Below the pieces are notes generated by a model. That model ran no database searches and was not told the origin of the DNA. It saw only the letters and a program-made list of their open reading frames with translations. From assembly GCA_000004985.1 (NCBI GenBank), contig GG739049.1: a stretch of DNA of 4,009 bases, one strand, 5' to 3'. Source of the DNA: Naegleria gruberi. Taxonomy: Eukaryota. This document shows positions 260 to 3,918 of the stretch, one piece after another. The position numbers and the translations under genes are program-made. Position 1 is the stretch's first letter, and each line of letters opens with the position of its first letter.

Positions 260-910
260 TTATCTTCTTCTTTGAGTCATGCCACCTCTTCTGCCACCTC
301 TGCCACCTCTTCCACCTCTACCACCTCTTGTAGCAATAGCACCACGTGTAGTTCTTTGTGGTCCCTTTGGTTGTTTATTCTTTGTTGCTTCTTCTTGTAA
401 ACCTTGAATACCAGCCTTTGCAATTCTAACTTTAGTATTATTAATAATATTCTTATTTTGATGTTGTAATCTCATTGCTAATTGTACTGAATCTGGATGA
501 GCAAATTCAACAAATGCATAAGTTTGAGATTGGAATGATTCAACAGTTTTATGTTTCAATAAGTGAACATTTAAAATGACACCACATCTATTTTGATAGA
601 ATAATCTTTTAACTTGTTGACTTGTAACTGTACCTGGTAATGGTGTAATATAAATGGTACGATCTTGTTTCTCTGGATCTTTAACTTCAACTAATTTAGC
701 CAAATCAAAATCAATTGATCTATCTTTACAACTATTTAATAAAAGTGAAATATCAGATCTTTTAGCAACTGTTAAATAATTACCAGCTAATGCTAAATAA
801 GAAACAGATGATTGTGGATTTTCTTGTGTAATGGCAGTTGCTAATGCTAAACCTGCCTTATCATTAATATGATTATGTTTCAATCCAACTCTCTTTAATG
901 TTGTAATAAA
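260..910 (-). CDS. RNA-binding protein, partial: 5' end lost in the assembly gap. It has one RRM domain and a C-terminal RGG/RG box. The RRM resembles La/LARP-family RRM1. The stop codon is at 260-262, and the reading frame stays open upstream of the track's TTG 'start' at 881-883, continuing to the gap edge at 910.
   Basis: The minus-strand ORF is 207 aa plus an open frame upstream (…FITTLKRVGL-KHNHIND…). RNP-2-like 'RTIYITPLPG' and RNP-1-like 'QTYAFVEFA' are spaced as in canonical RRMs. 'VKRLFYQNRCGVILNV' matches the usual 'LxxxFxxFGxIxxV' helix1/β2 pattern. The C-terminus is 'TRGGRGGRGGRGGRRGG'. The ORF track's start at 883 is a TTG and is not a real N-terminus; I translated upstream and found no stop before the N run. 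Confidence 0.75.
   Translation of the reverse strand, partial: FITTLKRVGLKHNHINDKAGLALATAITQENPQSSVSYLALAGNYLTVAKRSDISLLLNSCKDRSIDFDLAKLVEVKDPEKQDRTIYITPLPGTVTSQQVKRLFYQNRCGVILNVHLLKHKTVESFQSQTYAFVEFAHPDSVQLAMRLQHQNKNIINNTKVRIAKAGIQGLQEEATKNKQPKGPQRTTRGAIATRGGRGGRGGRGGRRGGMTQRRR
281..328 (-). repeat. Imperfect 9-bp tandem repeat (plus-strand unit gccacctct, minus-strand unit aga-ggt-ggN) that encodes the (RGG)n box
   Basis: Read directly from the sequence: gccacctct | tct | gccacctct | gccacctct | tccacctct | accacctct. The reverse complement aga ggt ggc/gga/ggt gives R-G-G five times, with one extra R codon. Confidence 0.85.
416..661 (-). other. RRM (RNA recognition motif) domain, approximately aa 75-156 of the 207-aa ORF
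   Basis: RNP-2 'IYITPL' and RNP-1 'TYAFVEF' are seen directly in the translation. 'RTIYITPLPGTVTSQQVKRLFYQNRCGVILNVHL' resembles my recollection of human LARP7 RRM1 '[32 protein letters not shown]'; that comparison is from memory and was not computed. Confidence 0.7.
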
Positions 911-1164
911 NNNNNNNNNNNNNNNNNNNNNNNNNNNNNNNNNNNNNNNNNNNNNNNNNNNNNNNNNNNNNNNNNNNNNNNNNNNNNNNNNNNNNNNNNN
1001 NNNNNNNNNNNNNNNNNNNNNNNNNNNNNNNNNNNNNNNNNNNNNNNNNNNNNNNNNNNNNNNNNNNNNNNNNNNNNNNNNNNNNNNNNNNNNNNNNNNN
1101 NNNNNNNNNNNNNNNNNNNNNNNNNNNNNNNNNNNNNNNNNNNNNNNNNNNNNNNNNNNNNNNN
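911..1164. other. Assembly gap (254 N) interrupting the RRM/RGG gene
   Basis: A run of 254 'n'. The open reading frames on the two sides of the gap are not in the same phase, as expected for a gap of arbitrary size. Confidence 0.95.
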
Positions 1165-1209
1165 TCTGATAGAAGTTGAGAAAGAAGCAATAAACAGTCT
1201 ACTTGTTAG

Positions 1210-1231
1210 AATCTATTTTGCAATCTATTTT
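1210..1231. repeat. Short direct repeat 'aatctatttt' x2 (1210-1219 and 1222-1231) just upstream (minus-strand sense) of the gap-interrupted gene
   Basis: Seen directly in the sequence. Its function is unknown. It could be a promoter or UTR element, or a chance repeat in AT-rich DNA. Confidence 0.3.
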
Positions 1232-2307
1232 ATAAGTATTTTAGATTACTTTTCCATAAATTCTTAGTCTCTTCTAATCAAATCAAATTGTCTTGTAATT
1301 GATTTAGCTTTTGAATTTGGGTTTCATCAACAAAGATTGTTGCGATGAAAATTAGAGATTTATAAAATAATAAAGTCCTTAATCCAATAATGTGATAAAT
1401 GTTGCTTTATGGTGTAATTTCAGCTTCAGATGTATAAATATTTTTCAACAAATAATTTGTGGTGCTTAGGTTTCATGTTCAAGTTCAAATGGAAATTGGT
1501 TTAGATGAATGAGAATGGTCGTTTACAAATCTAAGATTCACACTCGTGAAATGTCAAAGAATCAATATTTGGTTGATGATATTTAAGTATTCTAAATACT
1601 ACTATCTTATATATAGTGTTTGTACAAAATCATAAACATGTAATCTCGTTATGTGGAATGCTAAGTATATCCGATATGACATACCTGTCTTGGAGTATTT
1701 GATGGTAACTTCTTCTTATATACGCCGCGTTTCCAATAATGACATTATATGATCAATTTGTTTGGTTGATAGTAGAAACACCATCAATTTGTCTATTCAA
1801 AGCTGATTTAACTAAACCTACAGCCCTGAAAAGTTAGCCAAATATTCAAAGTTAATATCATCAAGGAAAGCATATCAATGTTAATAACGCACACCGAAAA
1901 CTTTGAGTAGCAATAGTACACTTTCGCTAATTAAATAGGAATCATTGACGTTATATTATAACCTAAGTACACAAATAAAACACTATCCGACGCGGGTAAA
2001 GATGCAAATCGTCAGGTAACATATTAAATTTCCGTTATAACAATAGAACGGATTAACCTATTATGTTAAGTGAATGTTACACCTAAAAGTGATCTAACTA
2101 AATAGTTATTTAACAGACAAATACGTACCTATTTACTTAACCAACAATTTGGTTCTCAAGACGTATGGCTTGATTTATAATTTTGTTCAGTACCTAAATT
2201 ATAGTGAATTCCTTGCCAATTTTTGTTCTCTTCGTACATTAGCTTCTCAAAGTAATGAATTGAGATGCGAACTTGATAAGGAATTGGACTTAATTGAACG
2301 AAACAAT

Positions 2308-2493
2308 ATGAGTGGCATTCAAGATATTTTCGAATTCATTGGAAAAGCAAGTGAAATAATTTTTGAGCACTTTATTATAAATTTGAACAACAAATCAAAC
2401 AAAAAAGAAGACAAATTATTAATCACCGTGAGTAGCGCTAGTGGAAAATCTCTTTTACAAATAGAAAAACATACAGGTGGTGAAAGTTGGTGA
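2308..2493 (+). CDS. Hypothetical short ORF (61 aa from the first ATG). The track ORF 2149-2493 begins at a TTG. This is a doubtful gene and may be a pseudogene or TE relic.
   Basis: The ORF is MSGIQDIFEFIGKASEIIFEHFIINLNNKSNKKEDKLLITVSSASGKSLLQIEKHTGGESW. Its codon usage (ggc, gtg, agc, gag, cac) is atypical for the strongly AT3-biased neighbouring genes. I recognise no domain. Confidence 0.2.
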   Translation: MSGIQDIFEFIGKASEIIFEHFIINLNNKSNKKEDKLLITVSSASGKSLLQIEKHTGGESW

Positions 2494-2627
2494 ATATGAT
2501 GAAAGTTACTTTTATACCTCAAAAAAAACCAAGTTCTAGCCCAATGTCAATCAATAATCTTCACAATTTGTGACGAGTATTAGAAATTCAAAAGAGCTGC
2601 TGAACTTAATACAGAACTATATAATTA

Positions 2628-2633
2628 TTTATT
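2628..2633 (-). terminator. Putative poly(A) signal (AATAAA on the minus strand) about 30 nt downstream of the TDP2-like gene stop
   Basis: Plus-strand 'tttatt' at 2628-2633. The stop codon (tga on the minus strand) is at 2662-2664. Confidence 0.35.
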
Positions 2634-2661
2634 TACATATTTTACTTTAATATTAAACTAA

Positions 2662-3918
2662 TCATTCAATATTATAAATTTCAGAATATAAACCAAAATG
2701 ATCACTCATACATGTATAATCCAAACTAAAAGATTGTTTTAATTTTAATTGATCTTGTTCATTTAAAATTAATTTTTCATTTCCAATAATTTTAATTTCT
2801 TTTGGAATATAATTTTTAGAATTTAATAAAATTCTATCTAATCTTTGACCTTTTCTATTATTTTGATATAAAAATGTTTTACCTTCTATATTTGGATATA
2901 AATAATACCAAATATCTTTATAATCTTTATAATTACCTGTTAATAATTGATCATTTTCAATTGAAGATGAATCAAAATTAAAATCACCCATTAACATTTT
3001 AATTTCTGTATTTGGATATTGATTATAAATAGAATAAATTTCATTTAATTGTACATGTCTTCTTTCTTTAGATGATAATGATTCTAAATGTACTGTTCCA
3101 ATTATAGCATAGGTTGGTATTAATTTTTCTAATTCTTCAATATTACTATTAATATCATTATTATTAATAGAATTTAAATATTTTAAATAAATATCTAAAT
3201 TTGGTATATTTTTAGCAAAAGTACAATTAATTAAACATCTACCCATTCTAGTTGTTAATTTATTAATTTTAATATCTAAAATAGGTAAATTTTTTTTAAT
3301 TAAAATCATAACACCATATGGATCAATAGAATTACCATCTATATCAGATATAATATAATTATTTTTAATAAAATCATTTTTAGTAATAAAATCAATTACA
3401 TATAAAGGTATTACTTCTTGTAAACATATAATATCTACATTTAAATTTTTAAATACATTTAATTGTTCTGTATATCTTTGATCTTGTAATATATTTGCAA
3501 ACCATGTATTTAATGTTATTATTTTTAATTCTTTAGGAAATTCAATCATTTCATTATATATATTTTTAATTATATTTTCATTATTATTTAAATTATTTAA
3601 ATTATTTTCAATTCTAATCCATGAATTGTTATTATTACAATAAATAAATTTTCTATTAAATAATTTTGATTTTTCATCTTGTTCATTTCTTAAGGCTTGT
3701 TCATATCTTTCTTTAAAATCAACTACATGTTGATTGGTTGGTTTTTTTAATTTTGATTTAATTGAATTTAATTCATTACCATTTATATTTGATATAAAAT
3801 TATTTATAAAAGTATTATTATTATTATTAGTGGTATTAGTACTAGTATTATTTACTACTAATGGTTGTTGTTGCAGTGGTGGAGGAGGTGGAACATTTGA
3901 TGATGATGAATTGATCAT
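2662..3918 (-). CDS. Tyrosyl-DNA phosphodiesterase 2 (TDP2/TTRAP)-like Mg2+-dependent phosphodiesterase of the endonuclease/exonuclease/phosphatase (EEP) superfamily. It is 418 aa with an ATG at 3916-3918 and a stop at 2662-2664.
   Basis: All EEP catalytic motifs are present in the canonical order. They are 'KIITLNTWF' (metal-binding Asn, aa ~137), 'DIICLQEV' (catalytic Glu, aa ~168), 'GTVHLESL…ERRHVQL' (the TDP2-characteristic HLES motif), 'MLMGDFNFD' (GDxN Asp, aa ~312), 'RLDRILLN' (compare TDP2 'RFDRIFFR') and C-terminal 'MSDHFGL' (catalytic His, aa ~407; compare TDP2 'SDHWGL'). The ATG is real and is preceded on the coding strand by A9. Confidence 0.85.
   Translation of the reverse strand: MINSSSSNVPPPPPLQQQPLVVNNTSTNTTNNNNNTFINNFISNINGNELNSIKSKLKKPTNQHVVDFKERYEQALRNEQDEKSKLFNRKFIYCNNNNSWIRIENNLNNLNNNENIIKNIYNEMIEFPKELKIITLNTWFANILQDQRYTEQLNVFKNLNVDIICLQEVIPLYVIDFITKNDFIKNNYIISDIDGNSIDPYGVMILIKKNLPILDIKINKLTTRMGRCLINCTFAKNIPNLDIYLKYLNSINNNDINSNIEELEKLIPTYAIIGTVHLESLSSKERRHVQLNEIYSIYNQYPNTEIKMLMGDFNFDSSSIENDQLLTGNYKDYKDIWYYLYPNIEGKTFLYQNNRKGQRLDRILLNSKNYIPKEIKIIGNEKLILNEQDQLKLKQSFSLDYTCMSDHFGLYSEIYNIE

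What the first reader, a model, noticed from the sequence alone, without database searches (positions are those of the whole stretch)
260..1215. An RRM+RGG RNA-binding gene is cut by the assembly gap and may be a La-module (LARP-type) protein
The RRM is unambiguous, and the C-terminal RGG box implies an arginine-methylated RNA-binding tail. The RRM's β1-α1-β2 segment ('RTIYITPLPGTVTSQQVKRLFYQNRCGVILNV') resembles La/LARP7-type RRM1 more than generic hnRNP RRMs; I am comparing to sequence from memory. The ~75 aa preceding the RRM run 'KHNHINDKAGLALATAITQENPQSSVSYLALAGNYLTVAKRSDISLLLNSCKDRSIDFDLAKLVEVKD'. They show weak resemblance to the C-terminal half of a La motif (…LTxD…hhxxL…S…hDhDLxxxhxxKx). 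Immediately right of the gap, in another frame of the minus strand, 'RLFIASFSTSIR' (1165-1200) recalls the La-motif 'L[IV]ASFxR' signature. However, this is only 4 codons downstream of an in-frame stop (1213-1215). It would therefore need an intron, for which a candidate 'gtaatc…caag' of only about 50 nt exists, and the spacing to the RRM looks too long. So the La-motif call is only a hypothesis. The true N-terminal exon(s) and promoter are unresolved because of the 254-N gap.
Basis: partly seen in the sequence, partly recalled or inferred. Interest (0 to 1): 0.5.

Follow-up and report, generated by a model that had tools for sequence, protein, structure and literature searches.

The report
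Tail of a giant E2–LRR–RRM protein
The RRM and RGG gene fragment is real, but it is not a La or LARP protein: it is the last ~216 residues of a large, unstudied protist protein family that joins a ubiquitin-conjugating (E2) domain, a ribonuclease-inhibitor-type leucine-rich-repeat array and a C-terminal RNA-binding domain.

Summary
A minus-strand ORF (260-910) runs open into a 254-N gap (911-1164). It encodes a canonical RRM (Pfam RRM_1, E 7e-8) and an RGG tail.

The La-module interpretation is not supported. The ~80 residues before the RRM are the last two repeats and cap of a ribonuclease-inhibitor (RI)-type leucine-rich-repeat solenoid. A family profile hits ribonuclease inhibitor at 6e-25. 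The AlphaFold2 model shows strand-helix repeats about 30 residues apart. None of 27 homologues hits La.

'RLFIASFSTSIR' (1165-1200) is a chance 4-residue match with no ORF behind it.

An exhaustive profile search found 47 proteins with the same LRR-tail, linker and RRM block. Most carry it at the C-terminus of ~1,300-1,450 aa proteins with an N-terminal E2 (UQ_con) domain. Named sources are Acrasis, Percolomonas, Naegleria, Anaeramoeba, Vannella and a ciliate.

The closest relative (58% identity) has one uninterrupted 864-codon ORF upstream of the same C-terminus. So about 1,100 codons are missing from the window. Nothing right of the gap encodes them, which means the gap is undersized, the scaffold is misjoined, or the gene is truncated.

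The gene is a new member of an uncharacterised family. Interest is moderate to low.

The parts
716..910 (-). The last two RI-type leucine-rich repeats (aa 1-65: ...TLKRVGLKHNHINDKAGLALATAI... / VSYLALAGNYLTVAKRSDISLLLNSC...). The ORF is open into the gap.
   Evidence: LRR_6 matches aa 3-24, weakly in the window alone (12.5 bits). The same position is significant in homologues (P0001 6.5e-5; 11 of 27 members). The family profile hits ribonuclease inhibitor at 5.8e-25 over profile positions 2-80. The AF2 model has strands 7-9, 38-40 and 67-69 alternating with helices 17-30 and 48-59. The LRR asparagine N44 is invariant.
662..715 (-). Conserved LRR cap and linker (aa 66-83: IDFDLAKLVEVKDPEKQD) joining the solenoid to the RRM.
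   Evidence: The stretch aligns without gaps in 47 family members as one block with the LRR tail and the RRM. D69 is nearly invariant. AF2 predicts short helices at 71-77 and 79-83.
413..661 (-). Canonical RRM (aa 84-166), with RNP2 IYITPL and RNP1 YAFVEF, followed by a conserved (R/K)AG motif.
   Evidence: Pfam RRM_1 at E 7.4e-8, 32.6 bits against a cut-off of 20.7. AF2 gives b1 85-91, a1 97-106, b2 112-121, b3 128-136, a2 139-150 and b4 162-165 at pLDDT above 90. Foldseek finds PABPN1, RBM23, CstF-64, SF3b49 and RBM7 RRMs at prob 1.0. G110, F136 and S141 are invariant in 27 sequences.
329..412 (-). Low-confidence basic spacer (aa 167-194) with one short helix (171-177).
   Evidence: AF2 pLDDT is 48-67 here. 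The stretch is not conserved across the family.
281..328 (-). RGG box: RGGRGGRGGRGGRRGG (aa 195-210).
   Evidence: Read directly from the sequence. Comparable RGG tails occur only in close relatives (P0001, P0002, P0003, P0013). Most family members end right after the RRM.
260..280 (-). C-terminal MTQRRR and the TAA stop (260-262).
911..1164 (.). Run of 254 N that cuts off the gene's 5' part. By homology about 1,100 codons are missing.
   Evidence: The family HMM matches the window only at HMM positions 1125-1297. The closest relative, L003, has an uninterrupted 864-codon ORF ending in the same C-terminus.

Best explanation
Window 260-910 (minus strand) is the 3' end of a gene for a large multidomain protein of an uncharacterised protist family. 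The family architecture is: N-terminal ubiquitin-conjugating (E2, UQ_con) domain, a ~550-aa conserved middle region with no Pfam match, a long ribonuclease-inhibitor-type LRR solenoid, a short conserved linker, and a C-terminal RRM. In this lineage an RGG box follows the RRM.

Shown here: the window encodes the last two LRRs, the linker, a canonical RRM and the RGG tail. This block is homologous over its whole length to the C-termini of the ~1,300-1,450-aa proteins.

Inferred: the missing ~1,100 codons, including the E2 domain, lie in or beyond the assembly gap. That would make the gap undersized or the scaffold misjoined.

Inferred mechanism: the E2 domain carries ubiquitin on its catalytic Cys. 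The HPN motif and the Cys are retained in both heterolobosean members examined (Acrasis, Percolomonas). The LRR solenoid would act as a protein-binding platform. The RRM and RGG tail would tether the enzyme to RNA or RNPs, or make it RNA-responsive. This would be an E2 with its own substrate-recognition region, analogous in logic to UBE2O or BIRC6 (a comparison from my own knowledge, not tested here). It is not a La or LARP protein.
For: - Homology. A profile of the window and two relatives, searched against 1.84 billion representative proteins, gave 329 hits at E<=1e-10. Of the retrieved proteins, 47 match the LRR tail, linker and RRM as one contiguous stretch, mostly at the extreme C-terminus of 1,200-1,550-aa proteins.
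- Architecture. Of 15 family proteins of 1,200-1,553 aa scanned, 13 have UQ_con at or above Pfam's cut-off at the N-terminus and one more just below it. LRR_6 arrays are found in most and RRM_1 in about half at E<=0.001.
- Match to the window. A full-length family HMM matches the six-frame window only at 263-910(-), at E 3.4e-58, HMM positions 1125-1297.
- Close relatives. L003 (58% identity) has one 864-codon ORF with the middle region, LRR_6 (1.3e-32), RRM_1 and RGG. L005 (51% identity) is collinear with Acrasis P0008 aa 20-1309, including the E2 domain.
- LRR nature.
- E2 residues. The HPN motif and catalytic Cys were aligned against UBE2D2 (sequence recalled from memory). The P0008 E2 domain matches UBE2A/B and UBE2D in the PDB at about 1e-25.
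Against: - The E2 and most of the LRR array are not visible in the window.
- The sequence right of the gap (1165-2660) has no coding similarity to the family.
- An unrelated complete gene sits at 2662-3918. The scaffold as written therefore cannot hold a 1,300-codon gene.
- The Naegleria gruberi model (576 aa) lacks the E2 domain, and the E2 domain is undetectable at the Willaertia locus. A shorter form is therefore possible.
- Four family members have lost the catalytic Cys.
- No experimental data exist for any member. The RNA-linked ubiquitination mechanism is inference from domain content only.
Confidence: 0.82

Rival explanations
1. La-module or LARP-type protein: a La motif immediately upstream of the RRM, partly hidden in the gap, with 'RLFIASF' as its signature.
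For: LARP7 RRM1 appears among weak PDB sequence hits (E 0.024). The human La N-terminal domains appear at Foldseek rank 19. The 4-residue string IASF occurs at 1180-1191.
Against: No La hit in the window protein at E<=1, in 0 of 27 homologues, or in any longer homologue scanned. The pre-RRM residues are RI-type LRRs. Generic RRMs score better than LARP7. 'RLFIASF' follows a stop, and the proposed intron adds only 4 codons. [IV]ASF occurs in 12% of shuffled windows. In orthologues the residues upstream of 'TTLKR' are further LRRs.
Confidence: 0.01
2. A shorter LRR-RRM-RGG protein with no E2 domain. It would have arisen by gene fission or as a 5'-truncated paralogue or pseudogene, so that the scaffold and its ~254-bp gap are roughly correct.
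For: Nothing right of the gap resembles the family. The N. gruberi model XP_002670450.1 starts at a Met inside the LRR array (576 aa). The E2 domain is undetectable at the Willaertia locus, which also looks rearranged.
Against: 254 bp could add at most about 85 codons, roughly three more LRRs. No promoter-proximal exon or start codon can be linked to the ORF. The closest relatives (L003, L005, L008, L009) are long, uninterrupted and collinear with full-length proteins. Short gene models in draft protist genomes are commonly truncation artefacts (my own experience, not tested here). The ORF fragment is intact and well conserved, which argues against decay.
Confidence: 0.14
3. A generic hnRNP or nucleolin-like RRM-RGG protein whose N-terminal part only coincidentally resembles LRRs.
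For: The RRM and RGG pairing is common in hnRNP-like proteins (my own knowledge, not tested here). The LRR_6 hit in the window alone is below threshold (12.5 bits).
Against: The LRR tail, linker and RRM block is conserved as a unit in 47 proteins. The profile-level LRR evidence is overwhelming. Most family members lack the RGG tail.
Confidence: 0.02

Closest known systems
Uncharacterised E2-LRR-RRM proteins of protists: Acrasis kona KAL0483244.1 ('ubiquitin conjugating enzyme E2', 1,325 aa), Percolomonas EP00818_P008525 (1,320 aa), Anaeramoeba ignava KAJ5071803.1 ('leucine rich repeat family protein', 1,343 aa) and Naegleria gruberi XP_002670450.1 ('predicted protein', 576-aa model)
   Same: The window's 216 aa align end to end with their C-termini (39-47% identity by tblastn, 50% to N. 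gruberi). They share the last LRRs, the FDLxKLVEVKD linker, the RNP1 motif YAFVEFAH and the (R/K)AG motif.
   Different: The window carries an RGG box that the four named proteins lack, although some close relatives have one. The window lacks the upstream ~1,100 residues, which are lost in the gap or absent. None of these proteins has been studied, so they give a family but no function.
Ribonuclease inhibitor (RNH1), NLR and RanGAP-type leucine-rich repeats (Pfam LRR_6; LRR_TMOD-LMOD PF27087)
   Same: Strand-helix repeats about 30 residues apart with the LxxLxLxxNxI pattern and a conserved Asn. The family profile hits RNH1 at 5.8e-25.
   Different: Those proteins are not fused to an RRM or an E2 domain. 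The window shows only the last two repeats and the cap.
Canonical single RRMs (PABPN1, SF3B4 RRM1, RBM7, CstF-64)
   Same: The same fold and RNP1/RNP2 aromatic residues. Foldseek prob 1.0, TM 0.8 normalised on the target. Sequence E down to 6e-4.
   Different: About 20-30% identity only. The sequence context (packed after an LRR solenoid, with a conserved PLP after strand b1 and an RAG motif after b4) is specific to this family.
La module of genuine La and LARP proteins (La motif PF05383 plus RRM1)
   Same: Only that an RRM is present and that some structured domain precedes it.
   Different: The preceding domain is an LRR, not a winged-helix La motif. There is no PF05383 signal anywhere in the family, and the RRM has no special affinity to La or LARP7 RRM1.
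Large E2 or E2/E3-hybrid enzymes (UBE2O, BIRC6/BRUCE). This comparison rests on my own knowledge and was not tested here.
   Same: The logic of a UBC domain embedded in a very large polypeptide that brings its own substrate-binding regions.
   Different: The domain order differs (the E2 is at the N-terminus here). The accessory domains differ (LRR and RRM instead of CR domains or BIR). No homology was detected outside the UBC fold.

Membership tests
La module / LARP | La motif (Pfam PF05383, winged helix) directly N-terminal to RRM1 | tested here: not met
   No PF05383 hit at E<=1 in the window protein. None in 0 of 27 aligned homologues at E<=1. None in 18 longer homologues at E<=0.001, nor in the L003 864-aa ORF at E<=0.01. 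The window's N-terminal 85 aa retrieve no La chain from the PDB at E<=10. AF2 shows beta-alpha LRR repeats, not a winged helix.
La module / LARP | RRM specifically related to La or LARP7 RRM1 | tested here: not met
   LARP7 scores E 0.024 and 0.074, against SF3B4 at 5.8e-4 and Sxl, Hsh49 and RBM7 at 1e-3 to 5e-3. By Foldseek, PABPN1 is best (1.4e-6) and La 2vod_A is rank 19 with rmsd 12.6 A over 176 columns.
   RLFIASFSTSIR is 4 codons after a stop. Removing the proposed 48-nt intron gives ...D*EFMENRLFIASF. Only IASF matches, and [IV]ASF is seen in 12% of shuffles.
E2-LRR-RRM protist family (unnamed) | Contiguous LRR tail, FDLxKLVEVKD-type linker and RRM block matching the family's C-terminus | tested here: met
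   hmmsearch of the full-length family HMM against the six-frame window: E 3.4e-58, HMM positions 1125-1297. tblastn of P0008, P0156, P0021 and P0019 gives 39-47% identity over about 170-180 aa, and P0013 gives 32%. Alignment A2.
E2-LRR-RRM protist family (unnamed) | Long RI-type LRR array upstream | tested here: inconclusive
   Only the last two repeats are present before the N run. The ORF is open into the gap. Orthologues have the array. Nothing LRR-like lies right of the gap.
E2-LRR-RRM protist family (unnamed) | N-terminal UBC (UQ_con) domain with HPN motif and catalytic Cys | not testable with these tools
   That part of the gene is not in the window. It is present in L005 (51% identity relative; collinear with P0008 aa 20-422) and in Acrasis and Percolomonas. 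It is absent from the N. gruberi model.
RRM (Pfam PF00076) | Score above the Pfam gathering threshold, beta-alpha-beta-beta-alpha-beta fold, and RNP1/RNP2 aromatic residues | tested here: met
   32.6 bits against 20.7. AF2 secondary structure at pLDDT above 90. IYITPL and YAFVEF read from the sequence.
RI-type LRR (Pfam LRR_6) | Strand-helix repeats with the LxxLxLxxNxI consensus, each of roughly 28-29 residues (textbook figure, my own knowledge) | tested here: met
   The window alone is below threshold (12.5 bits against 23.4). The family profile over the same columns hits RNH1 at 5.8e-25. AF2 places strands at 7-9, 38-40 and 67-69, with helices between them. N44 is invariant.
RGG/RG box | Three or more closely spaced RGG triplets in a disordered tail | tested here: met
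   RGGRGGRGGRGGRRGG at aa 195-210. pLDDT is below 50 to 67. Arginine methylation itself is not testable here.

The most novel reading that the evidence does not exclude
The E2-LRR-RRM proteins could be an ancient, undescribed class of RNA-tethered or RNA-regulated ubiquitin-conjugating enzymes. They are found here in Discoba, Metamonada, Amoebozoa and ciliates. I identified no animal, fungal or plant member, but most hits are unnamed, so absence was not tested. In this reading the C-terminal RRM (and in this lineage the RGG tail) directs an N-terminal active E2 to RNP substrates held by the LRR solenoid. The window would be the RNA-binding end of such an enzyme.
Probability: 0.3. Interest if true: 0.6.

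Novelty: new member of a known kind. Interest (0 to 1): 0.33.

Why it matters
For this scan, the result corrects an attractive but wrong annotation (a La/LARP protein). It also flags a scaffold problem: about 3.3 kb of coding sequence cannot fit in a 254-N gap.

More broadly, it draws attention to a conserved fusion of a probably active E2 enzyme with an LRR solenoid and an RNA-binding domain. I found no description of it in three full-text literature searches. If the RRM really directs ubiquitin conjugation to RNPs, this family would be a compact natural example of RNA-linked ubiquitination outside the model organisms. None of that can be shown from this window, which holds only the C-terminal fragment.

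Tried and rejected
- La/LARP: tested at the Pfam, PDB-sequence and fold levels and rejected.
- Upstream exon right of the gap: tblastn with five full-length homologues and a --max hmmsearch of the family HMM on all six-frame fragments found nothing. The proposed GT...AG intron was spliced in silico and gives no ORF.
The trimmed query returned only P0001. The exhaustive profile search was what opened the family.
- Exact look-ups: neither the window's 418-aa neighbour protein nor N. gruberi P0009 is on record in the contig index. The source organism therefore stays unidentified. The nearest sequences are heterolobosean: Willaertia at 72% aa and 73% nt identity over the LRR tail.
- Locus scan: the search for related loci with the 27-sequence alignment failed because no conserved stretch was found. 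It was redone with A1.
- Region 1165-2660: no phage match, no tRNA, and only a sub-threshold SNORD28 hit (24 bits against 50, E 0.84). I treat that hit as chance. The repeats found are only AT-rich low complexity.
- Willaertia locus L001: it could not serve as a model for the full gene. It lacks both the E2 and the RRM, and it is fused to a mitochondrial ND2-like fragment.
- Literature: three full-text searches found no description of an E2-LRR-RRM architecture. That is absence within that library only.
Full report
**1. The observation**

The window is AT-rich, with GC of about 15-35%. On the minus strand a reading frame is open from base 910, the last base before a run of exactly 254 N (911-1164), down to a TAA stop at 260-262. 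It gives 216 residues.

Residues 86-151 pass Pfam RRM_1 at 32.6 bits against a cut-off of 20.7 (E 7.4e-8). RNP2 (IYITPL) and RNP1 (YAFVEF) are canonical. The tail reads RGGRGGRGGRGGRRGG (window 281-328).

Right of the gap, 'RLFIASFSTSIR' is a correct translation of 1165-1200 in another minus frame, four codons after a stop at 1213-1215.

**2. What precedes the RRM**

It is not a La motif. The only non-RRM Pfam signal in the window protein is a weak LRR_6 match at aa 3-24. The sequence fits the ribonuclease-inhibitor (RI)-type repeat LxxLxLxxNxIxxxGaxaLaxaL twice: TLKRVGLKHNHINDKAGLALATAI and VSYLALAGNYLTVAKRSDISLLLNSC.

Homologues confirm this:
- P0001 has LRR_6 at the same position (6.5e-5), and the Willaertia magna model P0004 has a whole LRR_6 array ending in ...CFDLAKLVEVKD.
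- A 27-sequence family alignment (A2) searched as a profile against PDB sequences hits ribonuclease inhibitor at 5.8e-25 over profile positions 2-80. NOD2, NLRPs, LRRC34, DRC5 and RanGAP follow.
- The window's first 85 residues alone retrieve only LRR proteins, and no La chain even at E<=10.
- An AlphaFold2 model built on A2 has mean pLDDT 83, and above 90 through both domains. It shows strands 7-9, 38-40 and 67-69 alternating with helices 17-30 and 48-59. Two short linker helices and a textbook RRM follow.

La (PF05383) is hit by 0 of 27 family members at E<=1. It is also absent from all longer homologues scanned.

**3. The RRM is generic, not La-type**

By sequence, the best solved relatives are SF3B4 RRM1 (5.8e-4), Sxl, Hsh49 and RBM7. 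LARP7 RRM1 appears only at 0.024.

By fold, PABPN1 is best (1.4e-6, TM 0.80 on the target). The La N-terminal domains (2vod) come at rank 19 with rmsd 12.6 A over 176 columns, so only the RRM half superposes.

**4. The 'RLFIASF' lead**

[IV]ASF occurs at least once in 12% of shuffled versions of the window.

Removing the proposed 48-nt GTAATC...CAAG intron (1249-1202) yields ...RRD\*EFMENRLFIASFSTSIR. That is four more codons and then another stop. From my own knowledge of the La motif, a substantial stretch of residues must lie upstream of this element, and there is nowhere to encode it.

A full-length family HMM and five full-length homologues find nothing anywhere right of the gap.

**5. 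What the gene is**

A profile of the window and two relatives (A1) was run against 1.84 billion representative proteins. It returned 329 hits at E<=1e-10.

Of the retrieved proteins, 47 match the LRR tail, linker and RRM as one contiguous stretch. Most carry it at the very C-terminus of proteins of 1,200-1,550 residues.

I scanned 15 family proteins of 1,200-1,553 aa against Pfam. Of these, 13 have an N-terminal UQ_con (E2) domain at or above Pfam's cut-off (E 1e-14 to 1e-29), and one more falls just below it. LRR_6 arrays are found in most and the C-terminal RRM_1 in about half at E<=0.001. About 550 residues in between match no Pfam family.

Named members:

| Organism | Accession | Source's name for it |
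|---|---|---|
| Acrasis kona | KAL0483244.1 | ubiquitin conjugating enzyme E2 |
| Percolomonas | EP00818_P008525 | none given |
| Naegleria gruberi | XP_002670450.1 (576-aa model starting inside the LRRs) | predicted protein |
| Anaeramoeba ignava | KAJ5071803.1 | leucine rich repeat family protein |
| Vannella | MMETSP transcript | none given |
| Furgasonia (ciliate) | EukProt EP01016 | none given |

The E2 domain of the Acrasis protein matches UBE2A/B and UBE2D at about 1e-25. The HPN motif and the catalytic Cys are kept in both heterolobosean members and several others. The Cys is replaced in four (P0019, P0020, P0021, P0110, aligned against a UBE2D2 sequence recalled from memory).

**6. 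The closest relatives show what the gap hides**

A scan of metagenome contigs returned L003 (JAESGV010001680.1), which is 58% identical to the window. Its same C-terminus, RGG included, ends one uninterrupted 864-codon ORF that runs off the contig. That ORF aligns with Acrasis residues 444-1313 and carries LRR_6 (1.3e-32) and RRM_1.

L005 (51% identity) is collinear with Acrasis residues 20-1309, including the E2 domain. L008 and L009 are full length as well.

By homology, then, about 1,100 codons (roughly 3.3 kb) should lie upstream of base 910. No introns are seen in L003. A 254-base gap cannot hold them. Bases 1165-2660 have no related coding potential, and 2662-3918 is a separate complete gene. 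Either the gap size is wrong, the scaffold is misjoined, or this copy is truncated. I put the last option at about 0.14.

**7. How it probably works**

Shown: a canonical, strongly conserved RRM (G110, F136 and S141 invariant; E135 and A145 at least 90% conserved) packed directly after an RI-type LRR solenoid, with a disordered RGG box behind it.

Inferred from the family architecture: the full protein is an E2 with built-in recognition modules. The UBC domain would carry ubiquitin. The LRR solenoid would bind protein partners or substrates. The RRM and RGG tail would bring the enzyme to RNA or RNPs, or make it respond to RNA.

The logic resembles large E2 or E2/E3 hybrids such as UBE2O or BIRC6. 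That comparison comes from my own knowledge, and no homology beyond the UBC fold was seen. No member has been studied, and I found no paper describing this architecture. I give this mechanism roughly 0.3-0.4.

The RGG tail is lineage-specific. Most members stop just after the RRM.

**8. Verdict**

The La/LARP interpretation is rejected. The gene is the C-terminal fragment of a member of an uncharacterised E2-LRR-RRM family that is widespread among protists.

That makes it a new member of a family already present, unnamed, in public databases. It is of moderate to low interest for this window. The family itself is a reasonable target for anyone interested in RNA-linked ubiquitination.

Noticed in passing
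window 2662-3918 (-): A complete 418-aa ORF with an Exo_endo_phos (endonuclease/exonuclease/phosphatase) domain at aa 135-367 (E 6.6e-13). It has an Asn/Pro-rich low-complexity N-terminus. It is much more AT-rich (GC 15-21%) than the RRM gene (GC 28-35%). It has no PDB sequence match at E<=0.01 and is not on record in the contig index.
   Followed up: partly
window 1165-2660: About 1.5 kb with no ORF over 114 aa, no similarity to the E2-LRR-RRM family, no tRNA and no phage match. The only Rfam signal is a sub-threshold SNORD28 hit at 1425-1494 (24 bits against 50, E 0.84), probably chance. The 114-aa + strand ORF (2149-2493) has no credible Pfam hit. It is unclear whether this stretch truly adjoins the RRM gene.
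   Followed up: partly
L001 (Willaertia magna JBEGDK010000151.1) 2383-2925 and 5290-5661: The Willaertia orthologous locus looks chimeric or decayed. An ND2-like fragment (Proton_antipo_M, 2.8e-17) is fused in frame to the family's middle region. There is a frame shift near 5290-5340. The published model P0004 ends just after ...VEVKD, with extremely AT-rich DNA and no RRM in the next 6 kb. This could be a NUMT insertion, a pseudogene or an assembly chimera.
   Followed up: partly
L003 and L004 (JAESGV010001680.1 and JAESGV010001200.1): Two contigs of one assembly carry the same C-terminal LRR-RRM-RGG sequence (both 58% identical to the window; the L003 C-terminus reads the same as P0001, which is encoded on the L004 contig). 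Both genes are cut by a contig end. This could be alleles, a recent duplication or an assembly redundancy.
   Followed up: no
Family members P0019, P0020, P0021 (Anaeramoeba) and P0110, E2 domain: The catalytic cysteine of the UBC domain is replaced (VITVP, TVSMS, RISIP, TVKLD), while both heterolobosean members and several others keep HPN...C. Part of the family may therefore be pseudo-E2 (UEV-like).
   Followed up: partly
Family middle region (e.g. P0008 aa 170-720): About 550 conserved residues between the E2 and the LRR array match no Pfam family at E<=0.001. They include a conserved GHxPPxxPWP motif and a CF(Y/H)T(R/K)...LG(Y/V)G... block just after the UBC domain. This may be an undescribed domain.
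   Followed up: no
L002 835-1407 (-): In the closest relative, the next gene downstream of the E2-LRR-RRM gene is a convergent 190-aa ORF with a weak RRM_1 hit. The window has only 259 bp beyond the stop, so synteny could not be checked.
   Followed up: no
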